64,000 nt of DNA from Mustelus asterias (taxonomy: Eukaryota): contig NC_135808.1 in NCBI RefSeq assembly GCF_964213995.1, positions 22,630,001 through 22,694,000 on the forward strand. The letters are read 5' to 3'. The notes under the pieces are model-generated. The model worked only from the letters and a program-made list of their open reading frames with translations. It searched no databases and was not told the DNA's origin. Position numbers and translations under genes: made by a program. Shown here one piece after another: positions 1,125-35,163 of this stretch (position 1 is its first letter; every line of letters starts with the position of its first letter).

Positions 1125-1349
1125 GTAGGAATTGGAGGGAAAAGAGCAGCTCCTTACTGGGGGGAGGGATTGTGGGAGAGTATTCCAGGGTGGGGGGGCT
1201 CAGGCTGTGGGTCTCAGGTTGGTGTGGGGGTCACAGAGTGGATGGAAGAGCCCAGGGTTGGGATAGGGAGGATAAGGGGCTCATGATAAAAGGGAAGAGT
1301 CTGAGAATTGTGGGAAGGGTCTCAGATTGAATGACGAGTTTAGGGTATC

Positions 1350-1630
1350 AGTGAGGGTCCCGGGTCAGTGCGGGAGTGAGGGTCTTCAGTCAGTGTGGGA
1401 GTGAGGGTCTTCAGTCAGTGCGAGAGTGAGGGTCCCCGGTCAGAGGGGAGTGAGGGTCCTGGGTCAGAGGGGGGAGTGAGGGTCCTAGGTCAGAGGCGGA
1501 GTGAGGGTCCCGGCGAAAGAGGGGGAAGTGAGGGTCCCAGGTCAGAAGAGGAATGAGGGTCCCGGGTCACAGGGGGAGTGAGGGTCCCGGTTCACTGTGG
1601 GAGTGAGGGTCCTGGTCAGGGTGAGAGTGA
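1350..1630 (+). repeat. G-rich ~25-bp minisatellite (gggtcagtgcgggagtgagggtccc-like), gene A post-TM intron
   Basis: Visible tandem units. Homologous to the expanded array at 33225-34590. Confidence 0.85.
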
Positions 1631-1736
1631 GGATTTCAGAATTGTGTTGTCGGGGCTCAGTACGAGCGAGAGTTCCAGCCTCTGTCTCTGATTTTCTCTC
1701 AGTCTCGTCACTCACTGAGCATTCCATGTTTTACAG

Positions 1737-1769
1737 GGAGAGGGAAGAGTGACTACAATCCTGCAAATA
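1737..1769 (+). CDS. MHC class I gene A cytoplasmic exon 1 (33 bp; GRGKSDYNPAN)
   Basis: ttttacag acceptor and gtaagc donor, phase 1/1. Tyr-x-x-Ala motif as in the class I exon-6 tail. Confidence 0.85.
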
Positions 1770-1845
1770 GTAAGCTGATCATCAAATATCGTCTCTGCGT
1801 AACTGTGTGAATCACCATTGATTCTGTGTCATATAGTGTGTGTGT

Positions 1846-2181
1846 NNNNNNNNNNNNNNNNNNNNNNNNNNNNNNNNNNNNNNNNNNNNNNNNNNNNNNN
1901 NNNNNNNNNNNNNNNNNNNNNNNNNNNNNNNNNNNNNNNNNNNNNNNNNNNNNNNNNNNNNNNNNNNNNNNNNNNNNNNNNNNNNNNNNNNNNNNNNNNN
2001 NNNNNNNNNNNNNNNNNNNNNNNNNNNNNNNNNNNNNNNNNNNNNNNNNNNNNNNNNNNNNNNNNNNNNNNNNNNNNNNNNNNNNNNNNNNNNNNNNNNN
2101 NNNNNNNNNNNNNNNNNNNNNNNNNNNNNNNNNNNNNNNNNNNNNNNNNNNNNNNNNNNNNNNNNNNNNNNNNNNNNNNNN
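1846..2181. other. Assembly gap (N run) between (GT)n and (CT)n microsatellites
   Basis: 336 consecutive N. Confidence 1.
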
Positions 2182-2489
2182 NCCTCTCGGCCTCTCTCTC
2201 TCGCTCTCAGTCTGTCTGTCTGTATGACTCTTTCTCTGTATCTACCCGAACAGGCAGCTCGGGGATTTTCACAGTAATTTAATTGCAATGTTAATGTAAG
2301 CCTACTTGTGACACCAATAAATTAACTTATAATTATAAATTGCTTTCTCTTTCTCTCTTTTTCTCTCTCACTCTTTCTCTCACTCTCCTTTCTCTCACTC
2401 TCTCTCTCCATCTTTATCTCTCCATATCTCATGCACTGATTTTGTCTGATGACAAACAGTATTTTTAATGCCTCTCCTTCCTTTGACAG

Positions 2490-2536
2490 CTTCTGATAAA
2501 GGGGATTCCACAACCAGCTCCTCCACAGGTTCCTGA
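2490..2536 (+). CDS. MHC class I gene A terminal cytoplasmic exon (TSDKGDSTTSSSTGS*)
   Basis: cctttgacag acceptor. In phase with the previous exon. Ser-rich SD-x-x-x-S class I tail. TGA at 2534-2536. Confidence 0.8.
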
Positions 2537-10101: not shown

Positions 10102-10261
10102 AGAATTCTGAATATTGAGGAAGTTTGCCAACCTGTTTTGTGTCTAATCAGATTGCGGCTTCGTGTGAACAGAAAAAGACAGAAGGAACAAGTTGAGAAG
10201 ATCCCCTTTCTTTGGAAAAGAGTTTCCTCCAAAGGTTTCTCCCAACATGAGGGAAGCAGCA

Positions 10262-10310
10262 ATGATTGGACTGATAGAGCTGGTCCTTCTGTGTGGAGAG
10301 GTGTCTGCAG
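10262..10310 (+). CDS. Gene B exon 1, signal peptide [16 protein letters not shown] (in-frame upstream ATG at 10247 adds MREAA)
   Basis: ATG...GCA G|gtgagt. Phase 1 joins to (G)GT TCT CAC = GSH. V-S-A cleavage motif. Confidence 0.8.
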
Positions 10311-13300
10311 GTGAGTGATGGGGTGTGAGAGGGGCAATGCCAGGCTGGGTACTGGGGCATTAACCCTGGGTCAGTGAGTGATGGGGTGCGAGAGGGGCAA
10401 TGTCAAGCTCGGTGGAGCTCTTGCTCTCAGTTTAGAATTCACATTTTGGGATTCATAGCCTGGTGTTTCACTATGTGTGACAGTGGGTGTTTTGGGGTTC
10501 ATGGCTTGATGTCTCTCTCTGTGGTGTTGATATTTTGGGTTTGTACCTCAATTTCTGTGTGTGTGTGTATGTATGTTTTGGTGTTTGGGGCTTCACACCC
10601 TGATGTCTCTCTCTCTGGGTGTTGGTGTTTTGGGGTTCACACCCTGATGTCTCTCTCTCTCTGGGTGTTGGTGTTTTGGGGTTCACACCCTGATGTTTCT
10701 CTCTCTCTCTGGGTGTTGGTGTTTTGTGTTTCTTACCCTAAGGTCTCTCTCTCTCTGGGTGTCGGTAGGGTTCATACCCTGATGTATCTCTCTCTGTGGG
10801 TTGACGTGCCTTCAAGGAAGGTTTTTATATCATGTTTCTTGTGAAGGGAATGTTTTAAACTCAGCACTGAGCACCGTGCTGATTTGTTTGCAACCTGCAG
10901 TCTACCTGATGAGAACGCAGTAGCATAATTAATCCTAGATAATGGGTTGTTTTGTTTATCGTCTGGGTTGTCCCCTGGGGTTTCAGAGTCGGGTTTGATT
11001 CGATTGATTTACAAGAGGAAGTCATCTGCTAATGGAAGAAGCTATTCTTACAGAGAAACAAAGCAGGCAGTTATCTGCTTCGGTCTGTCATCAGCAAGAA
11101 GTGTTATTCTCTCTCACTCTCTCTCTTTTAGGATTATAGTTTGGGACCTGTTTGAAAATAGGTCTCTCTCCATATTTGTTCTGGGGCTTAAGGACTAGCA
11201 GTCGCTGACCAGCACATAAGCCTGTTGTTTGCTAACTGATGTTAAAGATGAGTTTACGTCTCTGAGGAATATTGCTTAAATTGGGACTAATACAGATAGA
11301 CAAGCAGCAAAGAATTTGATCTTGTCTTGTTTCAGTATTTAAGTTGGTAAGATATACATCAATTCTTTTTGTTCTTGTTTAAACTGTTTTGTTCATTTTT
11401 TTAAAGCTTCCCATTGGGTCAATAGAATCACAGCTGGAGTGATTCACTTCATCCTCACACTCATGCCAAAATAAAAATAAAAATGTGGGTCTAGTCTAAC
11501 TTCATAATATAACTTGGAGTTTGAGGTCTGGTCCCTAAAAAAATTTAGGGAGTGACCGAGATCAGAGTTGAGAATTCCTTGTTCAGCTTAGGATTACTGA
11601 ACTCAAAGTCAGTGAGTGTTGAGTTTTTGTGTGTTCTCTTGAGGTGAATGCCGTATGGAATAAATGGTTCTTTTACTGGCTGAGGTTTTCCTGGGTGTGG
11701 AAGAAGTGACTCAGGATGGTTTACAAAAAGTGGATAAAGCAAAACTTCTGGCATTGCCAAACAAGTTGCAGCTTTCAGTGATAGCTCGGCACTTAAAATT
11801 GCCAGAAACATTGGAATTGGCTTGAATTCAACTCCAAATCTCACAGCTTGAATTAGAGGCAAAGGAAAGAAAACACAATTGAAACTGTTGAAATTGCAAT
11901 TAAAAGCAAATGAAAAAGAGTTGAGATAGTTTGAATTGTAATTTAAAGAAAAAGAAAGCGAGAGAGAATAGCCCTGGCAGAGCAAAACAAAGGGAAAAAG
12001 AATTAGAACTTCAGGAAGTGAAAAGGCAATTTGAACTTGAAATGTCTGAAAGGCAAATGTGTAAAACTGCGCGTGTATCAGGAAAAGGACAGATGATTTT
12101 GAATCAGTTTGTGAATCATATGTTGGCTTTCAACATCAGTTTCAGCCTGTGAGAGACAGAGAAATCCTCAGGTGGTAAAGGAGATGCCATTGGAGATCGT
12201 AAAGATAGTTTCCCTCAGGTAAATTCTTTCCACTAACTGAACTTCAACTTCTTTATCTTTACTTTGTGATTTCCCCTCCTGGCCAACCTGTGGCTTTGTA
12301 AACTTGTTATCCCGCAGTCAGGAAAAAAACCCCAGGATATGCTTCCTGCATCACCTCAGCTGTCTGATTTTCCACTGGCTTTTCAACCACAGTAACCATC
12401 ACTCCCACCTGTGATCCAGCTTTATCATTACCCAGGATAAACTGTATTCCTGGAAAAGATCATTTCCCTATCACTCCAACCCCCACCACCACTTTCGCCA
12501 GAATCTCCAACCTTACACTTTATAATGGAACACTACTCTTTTCACAAGTAATTTCACTTATTTCCACATTTTTCCGGCAATACTCCTTCCAAACTACATA
12601 TCTCCTCATCTTTCACCATCAAAGATTGACTTGATCCTGTACCTTTTAAAATCTGAGCTTCTTTACCTCCTCCTCCTGGTACACATAAGTAAACCTTACC
12701 CACATAAGTAAATTATTTAAAACGACTAAGCACTTGCTTATCAACCAATCCCTGACCAGGCTGGACACTTTTTCACCTGTTCAGCTTCAACTATGGTTTC
12801 CTTTATCAGTTAACAGACCCCAGATGGTTGAGCAAGAACATAAACTGTTGGAGGATGGAGGTCACTATTTTTAGTTCAGAAAGTTGTCAGAATTACAGCA
12901 GAAGGATATAGAAATAAAGCAATTGTATCAGAAAGCATATACAGAAGAAGAATCTGAGTGTATACCAGAGTGATACTACATTACAAATGATGAATTGATG
13001 AGATGCTGGAGATCATTACATATTCAGGCAGATGCATCAAAGTTATTCCGGGAAGTTGTGGATAGCTTAGGAGTAAAGCAATTTAAATCAACTCTGTACC
13101 ATCCAGAATCGCAGGGAATATTGAAACGCGAGCGTCAAATTTTAAAGGCCATGTTGAGGACCTCCAGGCAAGATTATCCAGAGGATTAGGATAAAGGATG
13201 CACCAAATGAATGAACTAAATTCAGTCTATTTGAATTAAGTTTTGTCATGAGATAAGTGGACCACTTAAATTCATCAAGGAAAAGTTGGTGAGTCAGCAT

Positions 13301-16300
13301 TCTGGGACTATGTTGGACTATGTGTCAAACTTTATGGAGAGATTAACTAGGGCTGGGAAGTTCATGAGACTGCAATTAAAGGTGGCACAGCATGTGAAGA
13401 AAAAAAGTGGACAAGAAAAGTTCCTCGTTTTGCTCGCAGGGATAAGGTGTTAGCATTATTAGCAGTGCTAGGTGAACATTTAACAGCTAGGTTTAGTGGG
13501 CCTTATCAAATAGGGTGGCATGGTGGCACAGTCGTTAGCACTGCTGCCTCACAATGTCAGGAACCGGAGTTCAATTCCAGCCTCAGGTGACTGTCTGAAT
13601 GGAGTTTGCACTTTTTCCCGTGTCTGCGTGAGTTTCCTCTGGGTGCTCCGGTTTCCTCCCACAGTCCAAAGGTGTACAAGAGAGGTTGATTGTCCATAAT
13701 AGCTTGTCCCCTTCGTGTCAGGGGGATTAGTGGGGTCGATGCAATGATGAGGTCGAGGTGGGATTGTTGTTGGTGCAGGCTCGATGGGCCAAGTGGCCTC
13801 CTTCTGCACTATAGGGCTTCAATGAAATTGAAAGAAAATTGAATAAGATGATTTTTAAAAATTCATTCATAGGACATGGGCATGGCTGCTGGCCAGCATT
13901 TATTGCCCATACCTAGTTGCCCTTGAGAAGGTGATAGTGAGCTGCCTTCTTGAATCGCTGCAGTCTATGTGCTGTAGGTTGACCCACACTGCCATTAGAG
14001 AGGCAATTCCAGGATTTTGACACAGCGACTGTGAAGGAATGGCGATACATTTCCAAGTCACCATGGTGAGTAGCTTGGAGGGGAACTTGCAGGTGGTGGT
14101 GTTCCCATGTAACTGCTGCCCTTGTCCTTCGAGATGGATGTGGTTGTGGGTTTGGAAGGTGCTGTCAAGGATATTTGGTGAATTGTTGCAGTGCATCTTG
14201 TAGATAGTACACACTATTGCTATTGAGCGTCAGTGGTGGAGAGAGTGGATGTTTGTGGATATGGTACCAATCAAGTGGGCTGCTCTGTCCAGGATGGTGT
14301 CAAGCTTCTTGAGTGTTGCTGGACCTCATCCCATCCAGGCAAGTGGGGAGTATTCCATCATACTCCTGATTTCTGCCTTGTAGATGGTGGGCAGACTTTG
14401 GGGAATCAAGAGGTGAGTTACTCGTCACAGTATTCCCAGCCTCTCACCGGCTCTTGTGTTTATGTGGCGAGTCCAGTTGAGTTTCTAGTCAATAGTAATG
14501 CCAAGGATGTTGACAGTGGGGGATTCAGTAATGGTAACACCATTGAATATCAAGGGGTGGTTGTTAGAGTGTCTCTTATTCATGATGATAATTGCCTGAC
14601 ATTTGTGTTGCTCGAATGTTACTTGCCACTTGTCAGCCGAAGCTTGGATATTGTCCAGATCTTGTTGCATTTGAACATGGACTGCTTCAGTATATGTGGA
14701 GTCATGAGTGGTACTGAAAATTGTGCAATCGTCAGCAAACATCCCCACTTCTGACCTGATGATGGGGGGAAGATCATTGATGAAGGAGTTGAAGATGGTT
14801 GGGCTGACGACACTACCCCAAGGGATTCATAAGAACATAAGAACCAGGAGCAGGAGTAGGCATCTGGCCACTCGAGCCTGCTCTGCCATTCAATAAGATC
14901 ATGGGTGATCTTCTCGTAGACTCAGCTCCACTTAGCCGCCAGCTCACCATAACCCTTAATTCCTTTACTGTTCAAAAATGTATCTATCCTTGCCTTAAAA
15001 ACATTCAATGAGGTAGCCTCAACTGCTTCACTGAGCAGGGAATTCCACAGATTCAAACCCATTGTGTGAAGAAGTTCCTCCTCAATTCAGTCCGAAATCT
15101 GCTTCCCCTTATTTTGAGGCTATGCCCCCTCATTCTTGTTTCACCCGCCAGTGGAAAAAACTTCCCTGCTTCTATCTTATCTATTCCCTTCATAATCTTA
15201 TATGTTTCCTTCAGATCTCCCCTCATTCTTCTGAATTCCAATGAGTATAGCCCCAGTCTACTCAGTCTCTCCTCAAAAGCCAACCCTCTCAACTCTGCAA
15301 TCAACCCTAGTGAATCTCCTCTGCAACCCCTCCAGTGCCAATATATCCTTTCTCAAGTCAGGAGACCAAAACTGTACACAGTACTCCAGGTGTGGCCTCA
15401 CCAGCACCTTATACAGCTGCAACATCACCTCGCTGTTTTTCAACTCCAATAAAGGACAACATTCCATTTGCCTTATTAATTACCTGCTCCACCTACAAAC
15501 CAACTCCTTGAAATTCTGCACAAGGACACCCAGGTCCCTCTGCACAGCAGCATGCTACAATTTTTTACCATTTAAATAATAGTCCATTTTGCTGTTATTC
15601 CTACCAAAATGGATGACTTCCCATTTACCAACACTATACTCCATCTGCCAAACCCTCGCCCACTCACTTAGCCTATCTATATCCCTTTGCAGACTTTCAG
15701 CGTCCTCTGCACACTTTGCTCTGCCACTCATCTTAGTGTCATCTGTGAATTTTGACACACTACACTTAGTCCCCAACTCCAAATCATCTCTGTAAATTGT
15801 AAACAATTGCGGTCCCAACACTGAACCATGAGGCACACCACTAGTCACTGATCGCCAACCAGAAAAACACCAATTTACCCTCACTCTTTGCTTTCTGTTA
15901 GTTAACCAATCCTCTATCCATGCTAGTACATTACCCGTAATACCGTGCACCTTTATCTTGTGTAGCAGTCTTTGGTGGGTCACCTTGTCAAATGCCTTCT
16001 GGAAATCCAGATACACCACGTCCACAGGTTCCCCATTGTTCATTCCTGCACAGATGTCCTGGAGCTGAGATGACTGACCCTCCACAATCACATTCCTATG
16101 TGCCAGGTATGACTCCAACCAGCGGAGAGTTTGCCACCTGATACCCATTGATTTCAGTTTCGCTAGAGTTCCTTGATGCCACACTTGGCCGAATGTGGCC
16201 TTGATATCAAGGGCTGTCACTTTCACCTCACCTCTGGAATTCAGCTATTTTGTCCATGTTTGAACCAAGGCTGTAATGAGGTCAGGAGCTGAGTGACCCT

Positions 16301-19300
16301 GGTGAAACCCAAACTGGGCGTCACTGAGCAGGTTATCATTAAGCAGGTGCTGCTTGATAGTACCCGTGGAGAATTATATGACAAGAACGTTGGATCGAAG
16401 GAAATCTCACAGAGTGTTTCCTGAGAATATACTCAAGCAATATTTTGATCGGGAAGGAAAGCAGAAGGGGGATGCATTAGTTATGACAATGCAGAGTGAA
16501 GAAATAAGTCCAGATGATTCTGCATTTGACATTCTTCAAATTAGATTGGATAATGTGGAAGTAATCGGAAATTGAAATAAACGATTGAGTTACCTTCTGG
16601 AGGAAAATCAAAATGGCCTGAAAGAGTTACTACAACCACATGGAGAGATATGTGGGAATAAACTGGGAAGGACTAAAATAATTATGCACAACGTAGATGT
16701 AAGAAATGCTGTTCCAATTAAGCAATATCTGTACAAGCTTAACCCTCCAAAGTTGGCATAGGTTCAAAAGGAGATTGAAAGCATATTTAAAAATTACATA
16801 ATTGAAGTGAGTTGGAGCGAGTGCAGCTCACCCGTAGTGAGGGTTCCAAAATGAGATGACACCCAACAATTCTGTGTGGACTATAGGAAAGTTAATGCAG
16901 TTACAAAATAAGATTCATATCCCATTCCTTTCTTGGGAGACTGCATTCAGAAGGTGGGACAAGTGACTTTTATTTCCAAACTTGACTTACTAAAAGGATA
17001 CTGGCGGGTACCTTTATCCGAAAGGGCAAAGGAGATTTTGGCTTTCATGACAAAAAATGGTCAGTACCAGTTTAAAATCATGCCATTTGAAATGAAAAAT
17101 GCACGAGCCACATTTCAAACATTAACTAATAAGGTCATTTCTGGACTACCTAATTGTGCTGTGTACATAAACAAACTGGTGGTTTTCAGACAGATGTGGA
17201 AGGAACATTTGGAGCACCGAGCGGAATTGTTCAATTGGCTTCAGGATGCAGGCTTGGTGGTAAACTTGGCTAAGAACGAGTTTACAAAAACCAAAGTCAC
17301 ATTCATAGTCCATACAATTAGACATGGATGGAAGGCCCTACGGTCGGTGAAAACAAAGGTTATTGGGGAGTGCCCAATACTGCCGGTGAAAAGTGAAGTA
17401 CTGCATTCTTGGACCTGGATGGTTTTTATAGGAATTTTGTGCCAAACATTTGCATTATGGTTGCTGCACTGACTGACTTGCTGAAAAAACATGCAAAATT
17501 TCAGTGGACGGTGAATGTCAGAGGGCATTTGGCAGCCTGAATAATGTGTTAACCACTGCACCTGTGTTGGCAAGAACAAATTATGCAAAACCATTCAAGA
17601 TGGCCATTGATGCGAGTGATGTGGCTGTTCTATTACAAGAAGATGACAAAAGGATATAAAGACCAATTGGGTACTTTTTTCTGGAAAACTAAATAACCAT
17701 CAAAAGAGATTCAACCATTGAGAAAAGAAACATTGAGTTTGGTGTTGGCATTGCAACATTTTAACGTTTATGTTGTCAGCAATTCATCTGAGACAGTTAT
17801 TTACACTGATCATAATCTATTGACGTCTCTGGAGAAATTTAGAGATCAAAGTGAAAGGCTCTTTAGATGGAGTTTATTATTACAGCCATTTTATATGAGA
17901 ATTACAATGTGGCAGAAAGTGAGAATGTGATTGCTGATGCTTCATCAACAATTTCATGAAAGAGGAAGGAATATTCAATGTCGGAAGAGAATGACTGTAC
18001 TGGACAATAGAACTATTATACTTGCATGCATTGATTTACTAGAATGTGTATATTTTATATATATATATATGTAGTACTAATAGTGTGAAACTTGAAGTTA
18101 TGAAAAATGAAGCCATTTTTTATTGCTGTTTTTTTTAAGGGGGAGGTGTGAGGATACTGTGCCTTTAAGAAATGTATCTATATCATGTTTCTTGTGAAGG
18201 GATTGTTTTCAACTTCAGCTCTGATTACAGTGCCGATTTGCCCACAAACAGCAGCCCACATGCTGAGAGTGCAGAAGCATAATTTATCCCAGATAATGTT
18301 TCTTTTTGCTTTTATCTGAGCTGTTTTGTTTATTTTTTTGGGTTGTCCCTGGGGTTTCAGAGTAAGGTTTAATTCGGTTGATTGACAAGAGGAAGTCATA
18401 TGCTGATGGGAAGAGCTAAGCTTACAGGAAGACAAGCAGACAGTTGTCTGCCTGGACCTGCCAGAAGCATTATTCCCTCTCTCTTTCTCTAAAGACTGTA
18501 GTTTGGGACCTGCTCGAAAATAGGTCTCTCTCCAGAGGTGTTTTGGAGGCTGGAGATACCCAGCTCAGATACCCACATGTAAGGCTGTTTGCTGACTGAT
18601 TTTCAGGAGGTGTTTATGTCTATGAGGAATATTGCTTAAATTGGAACAATTAGAAATAATCCAGCAGTTAAGAGTTGTATCTTGTCACATGTAAGAATTT
18701 CAGTTGGTAAAAGTTGAGGCTATTTCTTTTTGTTATAGTTAAACTGTACTGTTAAATAAAGTTTGTTTTGACAAAAGCTTCCTAGTGGGTCATTGGAATG
18801 ACACCTCGAGTGAAACACTTTATCCTCACACGAATGTCAAAGTCAAAAAAGAGAGTTGGGGTCTGGTCTAAATTCATAACATGGAGTTTCTAATCTGGTG
18901 CCCAACGGTGGATGCTGGTGTTTTGTGTTCATACCTTGATCTCTCTCCGTTTTTCAGGTTCTCACTCTCTCCGGATTTCCGTCACGGGAATGACTCCGAT
19001 CCCGGGTTTCCCGGAGTTTGTGCTTGTCGGTTATGTGGATGATCTCCGGGTTGTTGTGTACGACAGCGATCGGAAGGAGCTGATCCCCCAGGAGCAGAGG
19101 ATGGTGGAGATCGACGGACATGAGGCTTGGGAACAGAAGAAGATTCTCGCACAAGAGCTGGGGATGATTGTCAAATTGTCTTTTCCGGTCTTCATTTCTC
19201 TGTCCCAGCAGACAGGAAGTGAGTCCTCACTTTCCCACCACTCGGGGGTGCAGGTGGGAAGAAACCAAGAATGGATCAGGAACTGGGAGCCAGAGGCTGA

Positions 19301-22300
19301 TTGGCTACGATTGGATATGTGACAGCAAATTTGATTGGCGATCAATGAGTGGAGGGAATGTATCCAAGAGAGACTGGCTCGGATTGGCTGTGTGTGGAGG
19401 ACATGAGATCCACTTAGTGTAACTGCCGCTGATTGGCTTTCTATGTGGTGGGAGGTGCCTCGCTTGATTTGATTGGCTCTTGATAGAGTGGGTCTGGCTT
19501 CTGAGTGGAACTAGCTTGGATTGGCTGTGGGGGTGGGATCTCACATTGGGACTGACTCTAATTGGCTGTTTGTGATCCACAGGAATCCATGTTTTACAGA
19601 TGATGACTGGCTGCAATCTGAGGGATGATGGGACCACGAGTGCATTCAACCGGATTGGGTGGAATGGACAGGATGTGCTCAGCTTCGACAAGGATCACAT
19701 GGTGTGGGTGACCCCAGTGACCTGGGGAGAGATCATCAAAAACAATCTTGACAGGGATACTGCCCAGAATGAGCGATTCAAACAATTACTGGAGGTGGAC
19801 TGTATTGAGTGGTTGAGGAAATCCCTCGAGTTCGGACAGAGTGAACTGACAGCTGGTGAGTGAGGGGGGAGCGAGAATTGGTGAGTGATGGGGGGAGCGA
19901 GAGTCGGTGAGTGAGGGGGGGAGTGAGAGTCGGTGAGTGAGGGGGGGAGTGAGAGTCGGTGAGTGAGGGGGGAGCGAGAGTCGGTGAGTGAGGGGGGGAG
20001 CGAGAGTCGGTGAGTGAGGGGGGGAGCGAGAGCCGGTGAGTGAGGGGGAGCGAGAGTCGGTGAGTGAGGGGGGAGCGAGAGTTGGTGAGTGAGGGGGGAG
20101 CGAGAGTCGGTGAGTGAGGGGGGAGCGAGGGTCGGTGAGTGAGGGGAGAGCAAGGGTCGGTGAGTGAGGAGGGTTTGGGAATCAGTGGGTGAGGTAGGAG
20201 TGAGTGGGAATCGGTGAGTGAGGGAGGGAGTGAGAGTCGGTGAGTGAGGAGGGGAGCGAGAGTCGGTGAGTGAGGGGGGAGGGAGAGTCGGTGAGTGAGG
20301 GGGGGAGCGAGAGTCGGTGAGTGAGGGGGGGAGCGAGAGCCGGTGAGTGAGGGGGAGCGAGAGTCGGTGAGTGAGGGGGGAGCGAGAGTTGGTGAGTGAG
20401 GGGGGAGCGAGAGTCGGTGAGTGAGGGGGGAGCGAGGGTCGGTGAGTGAGGGGAGAGCAAGGGTCGGTGAGTGAGGAGGGTTTGGGAATCAGTGGGTGAG
20501 GTAGGAGTGAGTGGGAATCGGTGAGTGAGGGAGGGAGTGAGAGTCGGTGAGTGAGGGGGGGAGCGAGAGTCGGTGAGTGAGGGGGGAGGGAGAGTCGGTG
20601 AGTGAGGGGGGGAGCGAGAGTCGGTGAGTGAGGGGGGGAGCGAGAGTCGGTGAGTGAGGCGGGAGTGAGAGTTGGTGAGTGAGGGGGGGAGCGAGTGTCG
20701 GTGAGTGAGGGGGGAGCGAGGGTCGGTGAGTGAGGGAGGAGCGAGGGTCGGTGAGTGAGGAGGGTTTGGGAATCAGTGGGTGAGGTAGCAGTGAGTGGGA
20801 ATCGGTGAGTGAGGGAGGGAGGGAGACTCGGTGAGTGAGGGGGGAACTGAGAGTCGGTGAGTGAAATGTGAGTGAGAGTCGGGGAGGGGGTGGGAATCAG
20901 TGGGTGAGGGGGTGTGGGAATCAGTGGGTGAGGGGGGAGTGAGTGGGAATCAGTGGGAGTGAGTGGGAATCAGTGGGTGAGGGGGGAGTGAGTGGGAATC
21001 GGTGAGTGAGGGAGACTGAGTCATTGAGTGACTCGGGACAGATAGAGAGAAAGGTAGAAAACACCTCCTGCATTTTGCAGAAAGCTGGAGGGAGATACTT
21101 ATTTTCTATCAGCTCCCAGACTGCAATTTCCAGACAGAGAAAGGGAGAGAGAAAGAGCTGCTCCTTCGTTTTTCAAATTGAAACAGCAACTGCCTGCCTG
21201 TCCCTCTGTAACCCAAACTGCTCCCATTGACATGATTTCATTCTTGCCAATCAACCTAATTACACCCGACTCTGAAACACCAGGAGAAAACCACAACATT
21301 TCACAAAACTGCATTAGCTCAGATTAAAACAAACACCCCAATACTTAGGACCAATTACTCTTCTGCATTATGTTGTGAAGTTTATGTTTTTAAAATGATA
21401 ACACAATTGTAACAATTGGAGTTTTCTAAACAGCATTCCATTGGAATCGTGCTTTATTCGGTTTGTTAATTGTTTTGTTAACCTGATTGCTGTTAGTTAG
21501 ATAAATAAAGTGTTACTTGTTGCTTTACAGAGGGAATCTCAGGTAGTTATTTTGATTTGACCACTAAAAGTTGCTGAAGAGCAGATATTAACCCTTCTCA
21601 CACACACTTTAACAGATTATGAAGGGACGTAATGCTCTTTCAGTGGCTGAGTATCAGTTCTCAGAGAGGAAATCAACTTCCACTTCGTAACAATTATCAG
21701 CATGTGGGCTGCTGCAGTAATCAGAGTTGACACATAAAACAGTCCCTTTAGAAGAAATGCAAATACATTCCTTAAAAGCACAGTTCTGACACAGGGGACT
21801 TAGAGTGAGTGAGGGAGGGAGGGAGTGAGATTCGGTGAGTGAAGGAGGTGAGAGAGCCGGTGAGTGAGGGGGGGGAGTGAGAGTTGGTGAGTGAGGGGGG
21901 AGTGAGAGTCGGTGAGTGAGGGTGGAGTGAGAGTCGGTGAGCGAGGGGGGAGTGAGAGTCGGTGAGTGAGGGGGGAGTGAGAGTCGGTGAGTGAGGGGGG
22001 AGTGAGAGTCGGTGAGTGAGGGGGGGAGTAAGAGTCAGTGAGTGAGGGGGGTAGTGAGAGTCGGTGAGAGAGGGTGGAGTGAGAGTCGGTGAGTGAGGGG
22101 GGAGTGAGAGTCGGTGAGTGAGGGGGGGAGTGAGAGTCGGTGAGAGAGGGTGGAGTGAGAGTCGGTGAGTGAGGGGGAATGAGAGTCGGTGAGTGAGGGG
22201 GGAGTGGGTGTCGGAGGGTGAGGGGGGAGTGAGAGTCGGTGAGTGAGGGGGGAGTGAGAGTCGGTGAGTGAGCGGGGAGTGAGAGTCGGTGAGTGAAGGG

Positions 22301-25300: not shown

Positions 25301-28300
25301 TGAGAGTCGGTGAGTGAGGGGGGAGTGAGAGTGGGTGTGTGAGCGGGGAGTGAGAGTCGGTGAGTGAGTGGGGGAGTGAGAGTCGGTGAAGGGGGTGATG
25401 CCGGGACCCTCCATCTCGAGGTTCCTGTACTGACTCCTCTTTCTTTCTCTCTCAGTTGCCCCGATCGTGTCCTTTACCCGTCTGGGTGATTCTAACCAGC
25501 TGTCCTGTGCCGTCACTGGGTTTTACCCTCAAGCCATCGAGGTGAATCTGTGGAGAGATGAAGTGGTGATTGATGAGACTCTGTCCAGTGGGATCTTACC
25601 CAATCACGACAGCACCTACCAGATCCGGAAATGGGCAGAGTTTGATCCAGAGGACCAGGCCGAGTATTCCTGTCGGGTGGAACACAGCGGGATGAATGAG
25701 ACACTGGTGGTGATTTACGGTAAGACTATTTCTCACTGTTCGAGAGGACCCAGCCTCAGACCAGGGTCACAGGAGGGAGGGTCAGTGCTGAGCTGTCAGC
25801 CCAGGACAGCCTGAGGCCCAGTATAGAGCAAGAAGGAAATAAATATTAATCTTCAATGCATTACATCATCATGGTGTCACCATTAAAGGAAAGTGATTGT
25901 GTGTCCTGGGATTTTACTGTGCAATCTGCCCCAGTGTATCCTGCGATATTATAGCATGACAGGGCCCGGTGCATTGTGGCAAATAACAGGAAGTGCAGGA
26001 CCCATTGCATTGTTGAATATTATAGTAGGAAAGGGCGCCTGTGGATCATGAGATATTACTGTGTGACAGGCCAGTGTATCCTGAGATATTACAGTATTAC
26101 AGGGCCAGTGTATCCTGGGATATTACAGTATGACAGGGCCAGTGTATCCTGGGATATTCCAGTATGACAAGGCCAGTGTATCCTGGGATATTACAGTATT
26201 ACAGGGCCAGTCTATCCTGGGATATTACAGAATGACAAGGCCAGTGTATCCTGGGATAGTACAATCTTACAGGGCCACTGTATCCTGGGATATTACAGTA
26301 TTACAGGGCCAGTGTATCCTGGGATATTACAATATTACAGGGCCAGTGTATCCTGGGATATTACAGTATTACAGTGTCACTGTATCCTGGGATATTACAG
26401 TATTACAGGGCCAGTGTATCCTGGGATATTATAGTGTGACAGGGCCAGTGTATCCTGGGCTATTACAGTATTACAGGGCCAGTGTATCCTGGGATATTAC
26501 AGTATGACAGGGCCAGTGTATCCTGGGATATTACAGTATGACAGGGCCGAGTGTATCCTGGGATATTACAGTATTACAGGGCCAGTGTATCCTGGGATAT
26601 TACAGTATGACAGGGCCAGTGTATCCTGGGCTATTACAGTATAAAGTTTAACAACACCAGGTTAAAGTCCAACAGGTTTATTTGGTAGCTTTTGCTACCA
26701 AATAAACCTGTTGGACTTTAACCTGGTGTTGTTAAACTTCTTACTGTGTTTACCCCAGTCCAACGCCGGCATTTCCACACTATTACAGTATTACAGGGCC
26801 AGTGTATCCTGGGATATTACAGTATGACAGGGCCAGTGTATCCTGGGATATTACAGTATGACAGGGCCAGTGTATCCTGGGATATTACAGTATGACAGGG
26901 CCAGTGTATCCTGGGATATTACAGTATTACAGGGCCAGTGTATCCTGGGATATTACAGTATGACAGGGCCGAGTGTATCCTGGGATATTACAGTATTACA
27001 GGGCCAGTGTATCCTGGGATATTACAGTATGACAGGGCCAGTGTATCCTGGGATATTACAGTATTACAGGACCTAGTGTATTCTGGATGTTTACTCCAGT
27101 CAACTTCGGATGAATGTTCAGAAAAATACTGGAACTCTGTCTATTGGAGAGAATTCATGAAAATCTAGAAAGTCTATTTGGACTTCAGTAAGGCCTTTGA
27201 TAAATTTCTATATGGCAGGCTGCTCTGGAAGGTGAGATCACATGGAATCCAGGGAGAGCTGGCAAATTGCTGATGTAATTGTCGTGATGATAGGAAGGAG
27301 AAGGTAATGGTGGAAGGGTGCTTGTCGGACTGGATGCCTGTGACTAGTGTATGCCCCAGGGGTCGGTGCTGGGCCCATTGCTGTTTGTTATCTATATCAA
27401 CAATTTGGATGAGAATGTACAAGGCATGATCAGTAAGTTTGCAGAAGACACTAAAGTAGGTGGTATTTTAGGCAGTGAGGAAGCTTGTCAAAAATTGGAG
27501 CAGGATCTTGATCAGCTGGAGAAATGGGCCGAGAAATGGCAAATGGAGTTCAACACAGATGAGTGTGAGCTGTTGCATTTTGGAAAGTCAAATCAAGCTC
27601 AGACTTTAACAGTGAATTGTAGGACCTTAGGGAGTTTCGTTGAACTTAGGGACCTTGGAGTTCAGGTGCACAGTTCTCTGAAAGTGGAGTCACAGGTAGA
27701 TAGGGCAGTGAAGAAGCCTTTTGGCACGCTGGCCTTCAGTCAAGTCACTGAGTATAGAAGTTGGGAAGTTATGTTGCAGTTGCACAGGACGTTGGTGAGG
27801 CCGCACTTGGAGTATTGTGTTCAGTTTTGGTCGCCCTGCTACAGGAAATATGTTATTAAACTCGAAAGAGTACAGAAGAGATTTACAAGGATGTTGCCAG
27901 GACTGAAGGGACTGTGTTGTAGGGAGAGATTGGACATGCGAGGACTTTTTTCCTTTGGAGCGTAGGAGACTAAGGGGTGATCTTGTAGAGGTATATAATA
28001 AGATCATGAGGGACATGGATAGGGTGAATGCACTCAGTCTTTTTCCCAGGGTTGGGGAATCGAGAACTCGAGAGCATAGGTTTATGTTAAGAGGGGAAAA
28101 AATTAATGGAAACCTGAGGAGCAACTGTTTTACACAGAGAATGGTACATATGTGCAAAGAGCTGCCGGAGGAAGTGGTTGAAGCAGGGACATTGACAACA
28201 TTTAAAAGGCATTTGGACAGATACATGGATCTGAAAGGTTTAGGGGGATATGGGTCAAATACAGGCAAATGGAGTTAAGTTAGATGGATATTTTGGTCGG

Positions 28301-31300: not shown

Positions 31301-32997
31301 TCTTTTGGATAGAAACAGTCTAGCCCATATTGTCAATATTTACGTCTGTAAGATTGGGAGTGAAAACACGCTCAAAGAAATGGTTCAGGCACTCTCTCGT
31401 TTTCACGCCAGCCGGACAATGAAAATAATCTCGGAAAATTCCGCCCCATTTCTCAATTTGCAGAGGACATCAAATTGTGATGAATTAGTCAATATTGAGG
31501 AGAACTGCAATACATTAATTGGACATTCATAAACTTTTAGAATGAGCAAATAATTGGTGAATGGAGTTCAGCACAGATAAACGTGAAGGTAGTTTTCTGT
31601 TAAAGATGTATCGGGAGGTCACTTATTACCTGGAAGGTGCCGGTGTGGATGGAGTTGAGGAACAAAGGGATCTGGGTGTACAAATACACCAATCAGTAAC
31701 AGGTTAGACAAGGTCATAAACAAAATAAATGGAAAACCAGGTTTTATTTCTCGAGAGATTGAATTGTAAAGCAGGGATGTTATTGCTAAACCTGTATCAG
31801 CCTTCATTATAGGACATTTAGCACGTGTGCAGTTCCGGTCACCATTTCATACAAAGGATATAGATTCAGGGGAGAGAGTGCAGAGATGATTTACAAAGAT
31901 GATTCCAGGAATGAGTGGGTGGACATCTCGGTGAAGGATTGACCGGGTCTCCGCACTCAGGAAAACAGAAGGCTGAGGGTTGACCTAGTCGAGGTCTTGA
32001 AAATCATAGAACCCTACAGTGCAGAAGGAGGCCATTCGGCCCATCGAGTCTGCACCGACCACAATCCCACCCAAGCCCTACCCCCACATATTTACCCGCT
32101 AATCCCTCTAACCTACGCATCTCAGGGGCAATTTTTAACCTGGCCAATCAACCTAACCCGCACATCTTTGTGGGAGGAAACCGGAGCACCCGGAGGAAAC
32201 CCACGCAGACACGAGGAGAATGTGCAAACTCCACACAGACAGTGACCCGAGCCGGGAATCGAACCCAGGACCCTGGAGCTGTGAAGCAGCAGTGCTAACC
32301 ACTGTGCTACCGTGCCGCCCAAAATTATGCAAGGTTTTTATAGACTGGAAACAGAAAGAATGTTTGCTCTTGTGGGAAGGACAAACTGGAGGCCATCAAT
32401 GCAGGATAGTCACCAAGAAACGCAATGGGAAATTCAGGAGAGATCTCTTTACCAAAGAATGAAGAGAATGTGAAGCTCGCTACTGCAGGGAGTGGCTGAA
32501 CTGAACAGTAGATTAAGAGGAAAATAGACAAGCAAAAGAGAAGGGAATAGAGTTAAAATGGTTGAATTAGATGTGGGAAGATGGGAGGAGGCTCAAGTGG
32601 AACATAAACACCAGCATCAACTGGATGGGTTGATTGGCTGATTTTTATGTCGTATATCCTGTGTTTCCTGATTCTCTCTCTCTCTCTGACTCACTCTCTT
32701 TCATTTTGTCTCTCTCTCTGATTTCTCTCTCTTTCTGATTCTCTCTCTCTCCCTCCCTTCTTGGCCTCTTTCATTCTCTCCCACTTTCACGTTCTCTCTC
32801 TCCCTCTCTCTGATTCTCACTTTTCCCTCTCCCTGATTCACTCAGTCTCTCTGATTCTCTCTCTAACAGAAGCAAAGTCTCGCTCCCAGGTTGCTGTTAC
32901 TGTCGGGATTGTGGTCGGGGTCCTCGTGCTCATCGCTCTCATCATTGTGGCTGTCGTCATCTACACCAAGAAAGGCAGGAATTTGAAGGGAAAATAG
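10262..32997 (+). CDS. Non-classical MHC class I heavy chain, gene B (UEA/UCA-like by residue pattern). join(10262..10310,18958..19218,19583..19855,25456..25719,32870..32997), 324 aa in the read-through form
   Basis: Five exons, all joined by phase-1 GT-AG introns, with no stops. GSHSLR start, C101-C164 and C203-C259 equivalents, C1-set alpha3 and a TM segment. The 3' end is uncertain (see findings). Confidence 0.88.
10440..10800 (+). repeat. ~43-bp degenerate minisatellite (gggtgttggtgttttggggttcacaccctgatgtctctctctct) in gene B intron 1
   Basis: Tandem units. One further unit forms the alpha1 acceptor region at 18908-18957, beyond the LTR element. Confidence 0.8.
13513..13822 (+). mobile_element. 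HE1-type SINE nested in the Gypsy integrase
   Basis: Canonical head, and gatgggccaagtggcctccttctgcact tail. Confidence 0.85.
13862..16370 (-). mobile_element. CR1-like LINE (~13862-14826 + ~16041-16370) interrupted by a second CR1 (~14827-16040), both minus strand, nested in the Gypsy element
   Basis: Outer element: [15 protein letters not shown] and ALDIKATF. Inner element: [32 protein letters not shown] and a cataagaa tail. Confidence 0.85.
18958..19218 (+). CDS. Gene B alpha1 exon ([29 protein letters not shown]...ISLSQQTG)
   Basis: tttttcag acceptor, gtgagt donor, 261 bp. Class I alpha1 signature. Confidence 0.95.
19583..19855 (+). CDS. Gene B alpha2 exon ([13 protein letters not shown]...WNGQD...[19 protein letters not shown])
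   Basis: ccacag acceptor, gtgagt donor, 273 bp. Both alpha2 cysteines present. Confidence 0.95.
21040..21793 (-). mobile_element. Partial solo LTR (related to the intron-1 Gypsy LTR) carrying a nested, internally deleted second solo LTR at 21371-21692
   Basis: Reverse complement matches gtttcagagtcggg..gattg and tgtg..actgtgcctttaag of the 18147 LTR. The nested element runs TG...CA with ATTA TSD. Confidence 0.7.
23635..24897 (-). mobile_element. Duplicate of the composite LTR, with the longer nested solo LTR at 23966-24796 (TATA-like gtataaaag ~24250)
   Basis: Near-identical to 21040-21793 plus ~500 bp of extra internal sequence. Confidence 0.7.
25456..25719 (+). CDS. Gene B alpha3 exon (Ig C1-set; [10 protein letters not shown]...LPNHDSTYQ...YSCRVEHSG)
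   Basis: ctctctcag acceptor, gtaaga donor, 264 bp. C1-set motifs. Confidence 0.96.
25930..27075 (+). repeat. 34-bp minisatellite (acagggccagtgtatcctgggatattacagtatg) in gene B intron 4
   Basis: Homogeneous tandem units with no spacers. Internal TATCC-TG-GGATA dyad. Confidence 0.95.
26643..26779 (+). mobile_element. Short fold-back Penelope-like insertion inside the 34-bp minisatellite
   Basis: Palindrome of the PLE terminus plus tail ccccagtccaacgccggcatttccaca. TSD ctattacagtat. Confidence 0.85.
27170..28350 (+). mobile_element. 5'-truncated CR1 LINE (RT C-terminal half + 3'UTR)
   Basis: [40 protein letters not shown]. Confidence 0.9.
28371..30270 (+). mobile_element. Internally deleted Gypsy-type LTR element (LTRs start 28371 and 30006) retaining only integrase remnants, with a SINE fragment at ~29044-29240 (-)
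   Basis: Direct repeats tgtgataacccc..acctacaa..gggaatccctg. Purine tract before 30006. Integrase-like [15 protein letters not shown] and TAPYH. Confidence 0.75.
30627..31446. mobile_element. Non-autonomous DNA transposon (PIF/Harbinger-like MITE)
   Basis: Terminal inverted repeats gggtagaatttt / aaaattccgccc. 3-bp TSD CAT at 30624-30626 and 31447-31449. Confidence 0.7.
32004..32320 (-). mobile_element. Young full-length HE1-type SINE
   Basis: Complete head and tail, aaaat flanking duplication. Absent from the paralogous site at ~525. Confidence 0.9.
32870..32997 (+). CDS. Gene B TM exon (32870-32974) plus read-through to TAG (…[14 protein letters not shown])
   Basis: AG at 32868-32869. 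The donor is gcagga (gtagga in gene A). In-frame TAG at 32995-32997. Confidence 0.85.
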
Positions 32998-33224
32998 CAG
33001 CTCCTCACTGGGGGGAGGGATTGTGGGAGAGTATTCCAGGTGGGGGTGGCTCAGGCTGTGGGACTCAGGTTGGTGTGGAGGAGGTCACAGAGTGGGTGGG
33101 AGAGCCGCAGGGTTGGGATAGGGAGGGTGAGGGGCTCAAGAAAAAGGGGGAGAGTTTGAGAATTCTGGGTTCTCATGTTGGATGAGGAGTTGAGGGCATC
33201 AGTGAGAGTCCCGGATCCCTGCAG

Positions 33225-34590
33225 GAGTGAGGGGCTCAGGTCAGTGTGGGAGTGGGGGACTCGGGTCAGTGTGGGAGTGGGGGACTCGGGTCAGTGTGGG
33301 AGTGGGGGACTCGGGTCAGTATGGGAGTGGGGGGCTCGGGTCAGTGTGGGAGTGGAGGACTCGGGTCAGTGTGGGAGTGGGGGACTCGGGTCAGTGTGGG
33401 AGTGGGGGACTCGGGTCAGTGTGGGAGTGGGGGACTCGGGTCAGTGTGGGAGTGGGGGACTCGGGTCAGTGTGGGAGTGGGGGACTCGGGTCAGTGTGGG
33501 AGTGGGGGACTCGGGTCAGTGTGGGAGTGGGGGACTCGGGTCAGTGTGGGAGTGGGGGACTCGGGTCAGTGTGGGAGTGGGGGACTCGGGTCAGTGTGGG
33601 AGTGGGGGACTCGGGTCAGTGTGGGAGTGGGGGACTCGGGTCAGTGTGGGAGTGGGGGACTCGGGTCAGTGTGGGAGTGGGGGTCTCGGGTCAGTGCGGG
33701 AGTGAGGGGCTCGGGTCAGTGCGGGAGTGAGGGGCTCGGGTCAGTGTGGGAGTGGGGGACTCGGGTCAGTGTGGGAGTGGGGGGCTCGGGTCAGTGTGGG
33801 AGTGAGGGGCTCAGGTCAGTGTGGGAGTGAGGGGCTCAGGTCAGTGTGGGAGTGAGGGGCTCAGGTCAGTGTGGGAGTGAGGGACTGGGGTCAGTGTGGG
33901 AGTGGGGGACTCGGGTCAGTGTGGGAGTTGGGGACTCGGGTCAGTGTGGGAGTTGGGGACTCGGGTCAGTGTGGGAGTGAGGGGCTCAGGTCAGTGTGGG
34001 AGTGAGGGACTGGGGTCAGTGTGGGAGTGGAGGACTCGGGTCAGTGTGGGAGTGAGGGGGCTCGGGTCAGTGTGGGAGGGGGGACTCGGGTCAGTGTGGG
34101 AGGGGGGACTGGGGTCAGTGTGGGAGTGGGGGACTGGGGTCAGTGTGGGAGTGGGGGACTGGGGTCAGTGTGGGAGTGGGGGACTGGGGTCAGTGTGGGA
34201 GTGGGGGACTCGGGTCAGTGTGGGAGTGGGGGACTCGGGTCAGTGTGGGAGGGGGGACTGGGGTCAGTGTGGGAGTGGGGGACTGGGGTCAGTGTGGGAG
34301 TGGGGGGCTCGGGTCAGTGCGGGAGTGGGGGGCTCGGGTCAGTGTGGGAGTGGGGGGCTCGGGTCAGTGCGGGAGTGGGGGACTGGGGTCAGTGTGGGAG
34401 TGGGGGACTCGGGTCAGTGTGGGAGTGGGGGACTCGGGTCAGTGTGGGAGTGAGGGGCTCGGGTGCGTGTGGGAGTGAGGGGTTTGGGTCAGTGTGGGAG
34501 TGAGGGGCTCGGGTCAGTGTGGGAGTGAGGGACTGGGGTCAGTGTGGGAGTGAGGGGTTTGGGTGAGTGTGGGAGTGAGGGACTCGTGTT
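33225..34590 (+). repeat. 25-bp G-rich minisatellite (tcgggtcagtgtgggagtgggggac), ~54 units
   Basis: Direct tandem repetition. Confidence 0.95.
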
Positions 34591-35163
34591 TGTTGCTCTG
34601 ATGAATTGTGCTGGTGTTTAGGGGTCTGATGGGTTTGAGCTCATCAAGCCTCCTTCTCCCCTCTTCCAAATTTTCAATGATGAGCTCACCTTAAATCCAC
34701 GCTAACTTTCCTTGATTAATCTGTGCCTTTCTAAATGAAGGTTTATACTTCATCACATTGGAATTATTAATTCCAATAATTTTCCCACCAAGTAAGTTAA
34801 ACTAACTGGTGTATAATTACTCAGATTGCCCCTTCATCCCTTTTCAATCCATGGTGTAATGCTGTCAGTCCTTTAATCTCCGTTCACTCTCCTGTGACCG
34901 GGAAGAATGATTCTGATTATCGGAGCCTCTGCAATTCCCTCCTTTGCTCCTTTTAACCTGGTGATTTATCTCCTCTCAAACTTGTAAAATCCCTGAATAC
35001 ATCATCTCTTACAATGTTTATCTGATGCAGTAATTCACACATTTCCTCCTCAACTGCAATGTCAACATTGCTCCCTGTTTCCCAAACACAGTGGCAATGT
35101 ATTTATTGTAAGAAGTTTAACAACACCAGGTTAAAGTCCAACAGGTTTATTTTGTAGCAAAAG

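What the first reader, a model, noticed from the sequence alone, without database searches (positions are those of the whole stretch)
18958..19855. Groove lacks every canonical peptide-anchoring residue and is hydrophobic: candidate non-peptide-presenting class I
Seen, by eye alignment to classical class I (HLA numbering): Y7>I (GSHSLRI), Y59>A (HEAWE), R/Y84>L, N86>Q (glycan lost, SQQT), Y/F123>V, T143>I, K146>N, W147>L, Y159>L, Y171>S. The alpha1 helix reads [20 protein letters not shown]. Structural residues (H93, Q96, C101/C164, G120, D122, P235, Q242) are kept. The only N-glycan sequon is NET in alpha3. Established: the shark non-classical lineages UEA and UCA are multigene, lack these residues and have hydrophobic grooves, and their ligands are unknown to me. 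Inference: a folded, beta2m-binding molecule for lipid, lipopeptide or small-molecule ligands, convergent with CD1 or chicken YF1.
Basis: partly seen in the sequence, partly recalled or inferred. Interest (0 to 1): 0.7.

Follow-up and report, generated by a model that had tools for sequence, protein, structure and literature searches.

The report
Shark MHC offshoot with greasy groove
This intact shark immune gene belongs to a young three-gene branch of the known UBA class I family that has lost all peptide-anchoring residues, its usual sugar site and its tail exons, and it likely displays a fat-like ligand instead of a peptide.

Summary
The window carries an intact five-exon MHC class I gene, and all nine peptide-anchor residues plus the N86 glycan site are replaced (near gap-free alignment to nurse-shark UAA). 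The lineage is not UEA/UCA: it nests in UBA (100/98), in a cluster of 55 UBA-type alpha2 exons. Some anchor losses are common in UBA, but Y7I, R84L, N86Q, Y159L and Y171F/S mark a three-gene branch (A = this gene, four near-identical copies; B; C). Its groove is the most hydrophobic of 112 sequences scored. It also shares a 2.9-kb deletion of both cytoplasmic exons. Groove codons differ about 7-fold faster than intron 1 and alpha3 is under purifying selection, which argues for function, not decay. B-like spliced contigs occur in one RNA-like run. Against: gene A alone changed beta2m-face residues (F8S, Q32R, R48Q) and W51R, so beta2m binding is not secure; no cavity or ligand was tested. Best reading: a YF1-like shift to a lipid or lipopeptide ligand inside UBA (0.5). 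New variant of a known kind.

The parts
10247..10310 (+). Exon 1, leader peptide (intact ATG, GT donor). The NCBI model P0002 missed it and took 17 residues from a retroelement fragment at 17619-17675 instead.
   Evidence: tblastn 22/22 identical to the leader of paralogue P0004; five-exon frame of 329 aa with one stop
10311..18957 (+). Intron 1, 8.6 kb, holding reverse-transcriptase fragments; shared with paralogues B and C (about 0.3 kb in a typical UBA neighbour)
18958..19218 (+). Exon 2, alpha1: I7, A59, L84, Q86; changes private to this gene S8, R32, Q48, R51
19583..19855 (+). Exon 3, alpha2: V123, I143, N146, L147, L159, S171; C101/C164 kept
25456..25719 (+). Exon 4, alpha3 (C1-set), 79% identical to nurse-shark UBA and 57% to UAA; carries the only N-glycan sequon
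32870..32998 (+). Exon 5, connecting peptide and transmembrane helix. The donor at 32975 reads GC (GT in B, C and the neighbour); read-through gives a stop at 32996-32998 and a short basic tail without the usual cytoplasmic tyrosine motif
34584..34640 (.). Approximate junction of a 2.9-kb deletion that removed both cytoplasmic exons; same junction in B and C
   Evidence: all three jump from the 25-bp repeat to the equivalent of window 4531 of the upstream typical gene
1020..2536 (+). 3' end of the upstream typical UBA neighbour (TM 1020-1124, cytoplasmic exons 1737-1769 and 2490-2536); used as reference for the deletion, not part of the gene

Best explanation
This is an intact non-classical MHC class I gene of a young three-gene branch of the shark UBA family, which has lost all nine peptide-anchor residues, the N86 glycan site and both cytoplasmic exons, and which likely carries a hydrophobic non-peptide ligand (an acyl chain, lipid or lipopeptide) in its groove for a lymphocyte receptor. 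Shown: gene structure, lineage, residue changes, exon deletion, excess groove change among A, B and C. Inferred: without Y7, Y59, Y159 and Y171 the hydrogen-bond net for a peptide N-terminus cannot form, and without R84, T143, K146 and W147 nor can that for the C-terminus; aliphatic residues (I7, V9, L24, L45, L70, I73, L84, L95, L159) would line a greasy cleft; without N86 the chain would not be recruited by calreticulin to the TAP/tapasin loading complex and would load independently of it; the short tail would leave it without the usual tyrosine traffic signal. Fast groove change among A, B and C would tune ligand or receptor specificity, as among chicken YF1 alleles.
For: 0 of 9 anchors kept. 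Mean Kyte-Doolittle value over 40 groove positions 1.21-1.37 in A, B, C against -0.55 to 0.46 in 18 of 18 other UBA copies; ranks 1-3 of 112 sequences. Smallest summed groove side-chain volume among the 30 distinct alpha1+alpha2 sequences scored. 13 of the 23 positions where A, B and C all differ from every other UBA copy are groove positions, which make up 40 of 176. Non-synonymous differences pile up in the groove: 14 of 26.5 (A-B), 23 of 36 (A-C), 20 of 28 (B-C), p = 4e-4, 9e-8, 4e-8; about 7 times the intron-1 rate. Alpha3 pN/pS 0.30-0.47. Frames and the splice sites of exons 1-4 intact. Run X1 (RNA by guess, organism A) has contigs joining leader to an I7-type alpha1 and alpha1 to alpha2 with B-like letters. 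Precedents: YF1*7.1 has a classical fold, a hydrophobic groove and binds N-myristoylated peptides (PMC2998441, PMC12212280, passages); the N86 glycan recruits class I to the loading complex through calreticulin (PMC9365787, passages).
Against: No ligand, cavity or expression of gene A itself was shown. Gene A alone has F8S, Q32R, R48Q, Q115R and W51R, where 17-18 of 18 other UBA copies agree. Positions 8, 32, 48 and 115 face beta2m, and W51 packs with V28 and Y171 (PMC8236899, section 19 and passages; that paper counts R at 115 as a normal state). Non-groove alpha1/alpha2 sites show no purifying signal within the branch (ratio 0.9-1.1 to intron 1). YF1 keeps Y7 and uses an intact F pocket (R82, T139, W143) for the peptide part, which this gene lacks. 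One alpha2 contig of X1 that reads F171 like B and C also reads F in place of C164. Structure comparison ties lipid-binding and peptide-binding class I chains. Synonymous divergence is about twice intron 1 in alpha1/alpha2 and higher in alpha3, so gene conversion blurs the neutral yardstick.
Confidence: 0.5

Rival explanations
1. The groove still binds peptides, but hydrophobic, long or N-modified ones held by side-chain pockets rather than by their termini (HLA-F-like or Xenopus XNC4-like; H2-M3 recalled as another case).
For: Derived from peptide-type UBA genes 62-70% identical over alpha1/alpha2; W167 and G26 kept; diversifying change in the groove is typical of peptide presenters. XNC4 lacks terminal anchors yet is reported to bind long peptides (PMC12562908, passage citing unpublished data).
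Against: Both ends of the groove have lost every polar anchor, and only 4-5 of 40 groove positions are charged; N86 loss would cut access to the peptide-loading complex.
Confidence: 0.2
2. The molecule carries no exchangeable ligand: the aliphatic side chains close the groove and the protein acts as a surface ligand for an NK-type or other receptor, gene A perhaps without beta2m (MIC-, HFE- or ZAG-like; comparison recalled).
For: Gene A has 6 non-synonymous differences from B at 19 beta2m-face positions where 0.9 are expected (p = 3e-4; against C 4 versus 1.5, p = 0.07); short tail; glycan site lost.
Against: T10, Q96, G120, D122, P235 and Q242 are kept; B and C keep F8, Q32, R48 and Q115; many fast-changing sites are floor positions (97, 99, 114, 116), which points to something bound.
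Confidence: 0.15
3. The branch was functional, but this copy (A), or the whole tail-less branch in this species, is decaying; the extra changes are drift in a redundant gene.
For: Private hits at near-invariant sites (W51R is the only R in 112 sequences); GC donor and early stop in exon 5; terminal exons deleted; first AATAAA only at 38122; broken neighbours are common (upstream gene has a 1-nt deletion in alpha3; four branch-like alpha2 exons have two stops each).
Against: Differences among A, B and C concentrate in the groove far beyond chance; 9 of the 18 residues private to A are groove positions; no stop or frameshift in 329 codons; four copies; A-type DNA is seen in runs X2, X4 and X5.
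Confidence: 0.15

Closest known systems
Shark UBA (nurse shark O19479, which reads the same as the AAC60347 UBA query in the PMC10751288 supplement; horn shark O19480)
   Same: Same clade; 60% identical overall, 79% in alpha3; multicopy cluster on the MHC-type chromosome; Y59, T143 and K146 already lost in most members.
   Different: Typical UBA keep Y7, R84, N86, Y159/F, Y171 and a tyrosine-bearing tail; this branch loses all of them and has a far more hydrophobic groove.
Shark UEA / UCA
   Same: Multigene, non-classical; loss of anchors and hydrophobic groove (recalled from Almeida et al. 2021, which was not held).
   Different: Separate ancient lineage: 28-34% alpha2 identity, separate cluster at C8 31-33.6 and 40.1 Mb. 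The UEA-type proteins scored here keep 4-6 of 9 anchors and score 0.26-0.76 in groove hydropathy for the five listed.
Shark UFA / UGA (CD1-like; PDB 8GM8, 9CH4) and CD1
   Same: Lipid binding is reported for them (PMC12562908, passage citing a personal communication); same fold.
   Different: Ancient, single- or low-copy and only 26-31% identical; this branch is young, multicopy and fast-changing.
Chicken YF1*7.1 (MHC-Y)
   Same: Class Ia-derived, polymorphic multigene family with a hydrophobic groove on a classical fold; binds acyl-glycine and myristoylated peptides.
   Different: Not orthologous. YF1 keeps Y7 and an F pocket with R82, T139, W143; this gene keeps none of these.
Horn-shark UBA-like protein P0039 and zebra-shark P0024
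   Same: P0039 has I7, L84, no N86, groove hydropathy 0.99; P0024 has L59, L84, L147, hydropathy 0.64.
   Different: They group with genes of their own species or order in the trees, but a shared origin with P0039 is not rejected (AU p = 0.19).

Membership tests
Shark UBA lineage | Groups with reference UBA sequences in alpha1+alpha2 phylogeny | tested here: met
   39-row clade at 100/98 with O19479 and O19480 among 71 rows; O19479 identified as UBA from the PMC10751288 supplement
Shark UBA lineage | Alpha3 of UBA type | tested here: met
   79% to nurse-shark UBA, 90-94% to paralogues, 57% to UAA
Shark UBA lineage | Multicopy cluster apart from the UDA/UEA cluster, flanked by c4 and rxrb | tested here: inconclusive
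   55 alpha2 exons at C8 21.6-24.75 Mb, apart from UDA/UEA-type exons at 31-33.6 Mb. A2M_recep hits at 20.24 and 21.01 Mb fit c4 but were not identified as C4; rxrb not searched.
Classical class Ia (UAA) | Conserved terminal anchors Y7, Y59, R84, T143, K146, W147, Y159, Y171, Y/F123 | tested here: not met
   0 of 9
Classical class Ia (UAA) | N86 glycan site and tyrosine-bearing cytoplasmic tail | tested here: not met
   Q86; both cytoplasmic exons deleted
Shark UEA/UCA | Belongs to the UEA/UCA clade and cluster | tested here: not met
   UEA-type proteins sit on a separate branch of length 1.81; 28-34% alpha2 identity. The label UEA for these rows rests on likeness to the supplement's nurse-shark 'UCA' query and on recall.
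Shark UEA/UCA | Anchors replaced by hydrophobic residues (feature recalled) | tested here: met
CD1-like shark UFA/UGA | Sequence lineage; single or low copy | tested here: not met
   26% and 31% identity in structure alignments; nested in UBA
CD1-like shark UFA/UGA | Deep hydrophobic pockets holding lipid | not testable with these tools
   No model coordinates were available for cavity analysis
Lipid-binding class I fold variants (CD1, YF1, ZAG, UGA) | Groove geometry closer to lipid binders than to peptide binders | tested here: inconclusive
   Z 24.4 UGA (rmsd 3.4, 266 aligned), 23.7 ZAG (3.3, 264), 23.7 chicken CD1-1 (3.1, 261), 23.7 marsupial class Ia (3.5, 265): tied; Foldseek best hit is shark UAA
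YF1-like class Ia-derived lipopeptide presenter (works like) | Hydrophobic groove on a classical-type heavy chain in a variable multigene family | tested here: met
YF1-like class Ia-derived lipopeptide presenter (works like) | F pocket R/T/W kept to hold the peptide part | tested here: not met
   L84, I143, L147 against R82, T139, W143 in PMC12212280 passages
beta2m-associated class I | Conserved beta2m-face residues | tested here: inconclusive
   T10, V94, Q96, G120, D122, P235, Q242 present; F8S, Q32R, R48Q, D119N changed; no complex prediction was run

The most novel reading that the evidence does not exclude
Sharks have repeatedly and recently turned peptide-type UBA genes into lipid or lipopeptide presenters (here in a houndshark, and separately in horn and zebra sharks). 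The switch comes as a package: loss of both anchor sets, the N86 glycan and, here, the cytoplasmic tail, followed by positive selection on the new groove. Gene A may be going further and loosening its hold on beta2m.
Probability: 0.25. Interest if true: 0.7.

Novelty: new variant of a known kind. Interest (0 to 1): 0.42.

Why it matters
How lipid-presenting class I molecules (CD1, YF1, shark UFA/UGA) arose from peptide presenters is hard to study because the known cases are old. Here a hydrophobic, anchor-less groove sits beside dozens of paralogues 62-70% identical in alpha1/alpha2 that still keep 3-8 anchors, and its three members differ by only 2-4% in introns but 16-26% at non-synonymous groove sites. 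That is a short, testable series for the peptide-to-lipid switch. It also shows that UBA is not functionally uniform. The general theme (shark class Ib with hydrophobic grooves) is already known, which limits the surprise.

Tried and rejected
UEA/UCA/UFA/UGA membership: rejected by tree, identity and position. Misalignment as the cause of anchor loss: rejected. Missing leader, suggested by the odd N-terminus of P0002: rejected, leader found at 10247. Assembly artefact: unlikely; the four copies differ at 4-7 of 1771 bases and A-type DNA is in other runs, though false duplication of some copies is not excluded. RNA search: no RNA holder listed on record; X1 is RNA by guess only. Laying X1 on exon 5 showed TM exons spliced to a normal cytoplasmic exon and no contig reading through into the intron; these contigs cannot be assigned to a paralogue, and lack of cover is no evidence. 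Search for short or fragmentary relatives gave 3 hits among 8 candidates, none above 69% identity; their residues were not examined. No branch member outside this species among the 120 of 128 proteins listed; the collection may simply lack close relatives. Structure searches did not separate lipid from peptide binders. A C-terminal di-lysine ER-retrieval motif was considered: the tail has K at -1 and -3 only, which is not the KKxx/KxKxx pattern (recalled). Shared ancestry with horn-shark P0039 could be neither shown nor rejected. Branch-specific dN/dS was not obtained; only pairwise counts are reported. Almeida et al. 2020 and 2021 were not held, so what they say on UBA diversity is unseen. 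Earlier scan notes: nothing found.
Full report
1. Observation. The stretch 18958-19855 holds two open exons of an MHC class I heavy chain. The whole gene is leader 10247-10310, alpha1 18958-19218, alpha2 19583-19855, alpha3 25456-25719 and TM 32870-32998, 329 codons with one terminal stop. From alpha1 on it equals database protein P0002, which NCBI labels as a Mustelus asterias class I-like chain. That model has a wrong first exon taken from a retroelement fragment. HLA numbering was carried over through the alignment in the PMC10751288 supplement. An AlphaFold model on a 95-sequence alignment gives the normal class I topology, mean pLDDT 88.6.

2. Lineage. The own genome has 78 alpha2 matches, all on contig C8; 55 distinct exons lie in 21.6-24.75 Mb around the window, and four are identical in protein to this gene (alpha1 likewise). 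UDA-, UGA- and UEA-type exons lie at 31-33.6 and 40.1 Mb with 28-34% identity (labels by eye against the supplement's reference sequences). In a tree of 71 of 112 alpha1+alpha2 sequences the gene nests in a 39-row clade (100/98) with nurse-shark O19479, which is the supplement's UBA reference. Alpha3 is 79% identical to that UBA and 57% to UAA. PMC10751288 (passages, section 9) describes a UBA-only cluster flanked by c4 and rxrb; A2M-family hits at 20.24 and 21.01 Mb fit this but were not identified further. So the gene is UBA, not UEA or UCA.

3. What is family-wide and what is new. From 70 fetched loci, 41 gave full-length open alpha1+alpha2 pairs, 30 of them distinct. I dropped 6 near-duplicates, 2 frameshifted copies and 1 UAA-like outgroup, leaving A (this gene), B (L005), C (L006) and 18 others. 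Among the 18, Y59 is lost in 18, T143 in 13, K146 in 13, W147 in 12, F123 in 5, R84 in 4, Y159 in 2, Y7 in 1, Y171 and N86 in none. A, B and C form a branch with a stem of 0.38 (100/100) and share I7, L84, Q86, L159 and F/S171. Mean hydropathy over 40 groove positions (list recalled from HLA-A2 work) is 1.33, 1.37 and 1.21 against -0.55 to 0.46; they rank first to third among 112 sequences, and 108 of 112 keep N86. One label pair (149a/150) is swapped in my numbering, which affects one of 40 positions.

4. A shared tail deletion. No cytoplasmic exon follows exon 5 in A, B or C. All three jump from the 25-bp intron repeat to sequence 2.9 kb further on in the typical upstream neighbour, removing both cytoplasmic exons. 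A has further changed the donor to GC and gained a stop just behind it, so read-through ends in a short basic tail without the tyrosine motif seen in typical UBA and UAA. They also share an 8.6-kb first intron with reverse-transcriptase fragments.

5. Selection. Only pairwise counts were made. Non-synonymous differences in groove codons: 14 of 26.5 (A-B), 23 of 36 (A-C), 20 of 28 (B-C), where groove codons hold 22% of such sites (p = 4e-4, 9e-8, 4e-8). Intron 1 differs by 2.1% (A-B) and 3.6% (A-C) over 8.6 kb, so groove change runs about 7-fold above it. Alpha3 shows pN/pS 0.30-0.47. Other alpha1/alpha2 positions run at 0.9-1.1 times the intron rate, so no purifying signal is seen there. Synonymous rates exceed intron 1 two-fold in alpha1/alpha2 and more in alpha3, and intron 2 differs by only 2 of 364 bases between A and C; gene conversion is therefore at work and the yardstick is rough. 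A decaying gene would not concentrate its changes in the groove.

6. Points against a tidy story. Gene A has 18 residues not shared with B or C; 9 are groove positions, and five hit near-invariant non-groove sites: F8S, Q32R, R48Q, W51R, Q115R. PMC8236899 (section 19 and passages) names 8, 32, 48, 96 and 115 (Q or R) at the beta2m interface and W51 in a cluster with V28 and Y171. The wider list of 19 beta2m-face positions used for counting is partly recalled. Beta2m binding of A is thus open, whereas B and C keep these residues. No complex prediction was run, because a textbook pair would be expected to pass by likeness.

7. Expression and reality. No RNA holder was on record. Run X1 (coded organism A, RNA by guess) covers exons far deeper than the intron and has a contig joining the leader to an alpha1 with 8 differences in 130 bases that keeps the codon-7 letters shown, and a contig joining alpha1 to alpha2 with B-like letters and no listed change at codons 84 and 86 (92 rows of the table were not shown). 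One alpha2 contig there reads F171 and also F in place of C164; it cannot be linked with certainty to the others. This shows a spliced branch member in another coded organism, not expression of A. Runs X2, X4 and X5 (organism B, one study) hold A-type DNA with 0-6 differences per contig. At exon 5, X1 showed only splicing to a normal cytoplasmic exon, which cannot be assigned to a paralogue.

8. Mechanism. Established: Y7, Y59, Y159 and Y171 bind the peptide N-terminus (PMC8236899, passages); the N86 glycan recruits class I to the loading complex through calreticulin (PMC9365787, passages); chicken YF1*7.1 shows that a classical-type fold with a hydrophobic groove binds acyl-glycine and myristoylated peptides (PMC2998441 and PMC12212280, passages). 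Inferred: this branch would load a hydrophobic ligand outside the TAP/tapasin route and show it at the surface (0.5). Rivals: unusual peptides (0.2), closed groove or receptor ligand (0.15), decay of this copy (0.15). Structure searches confirm the fold but tie lipid and peptide binders.

9. Known kinds and novelty. Sharks already have hydrophobic class Ib lineages (UEA, UCA recalled; UFA and UGA reported as CD1-like lipid binders in PMC12562908, passages, with PDB entries 8GM8 and 9CH4). That review calls UBA an expanded family derived from UAA. I found no description of an anchor-less, tail-less UBA branch in searches (listings, plus passages of PMC10751288, PMC12562908 and PMC6523485), but the two Almeida papers and the thesis were not available and may cover it. 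Similar grooves occur in horn-shark P0039 and, partly, zebra-shark P0024; with groove columns removed they group with their own taxa, but common origin with P0039 is not rejected (AU p = 0.19). Verdict: real feature, new variant of a known kind, interest 0.42.

Noticed in passing
window 17619-17675: The NCBI model P0002 starts in this retroelement-derived stretch instead of the true leader exon at 10247-10310; models of B and C are also fused or truncated (P0001, P0003).
   Followed up: yes
L090:3363-3648 (just upstream of the window) and window 1020-2536: The upstream typical UBA neighbour has a 1-nt deletion in alpha3, so it is probably a pseudogene although its TM and cytoplasmic exons look intact.
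   Followed up: partly
G000:C8 22.58-24.75 Mb: A block of several UBA genes recurs four times (gene A at 22.65, 23.06, 23.47 and 24.67 Mb) at 99.6-100% identity: very recent segmental duplication, or partly assembly duplication.
   Followed up: partly
L007, L008, L009, L013: Branch-like alpha2 exons with two stops, C164Y and no alpha1 match within 1.5 kb, about 68-71 kb downstream of each A copy.
   Followed up: partly
window 19219-19582: Intron 2 differs by only 2 of 364 bases between A and C while the flanking exons differ at 45 of 528: intron homogenised by conversion between diverging exons.
   Followed up: partly
L056, L057 (C8 23.75 and 24.43 Mb): A divergent UBA-cluster gene type (51% alpha2 identity) resembles carpet-shark P0040 by eye: possibly an old conserved UBA sub-lineage.
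   Followed up: no
L024-L031, L036-L039: Another UBA group has C95 and C147, two extra cysteines near the F-pocket end of the groove.
   Followed up: no
L063-L070: Most UEA-type alpha2 exons of this genome lack both alpha2 cysteines (L063 keeps the second).
   Followed up: no
window 15558-16244 (-), 16912-17469 (+), 40645-41232 (+): Reverse-transcriptase and endonuclease fragments of retroelements; introns also carry long 25-bp and 34-bp tandem repeats.
   Followed up: partly
P0039 (horn shark), P0024 (zebra shark), P0057 (sawfish): Other UBA-like proteins with 1-2 of 9 anchors kept; P0039 also lacks N86.
   Followed up: partly
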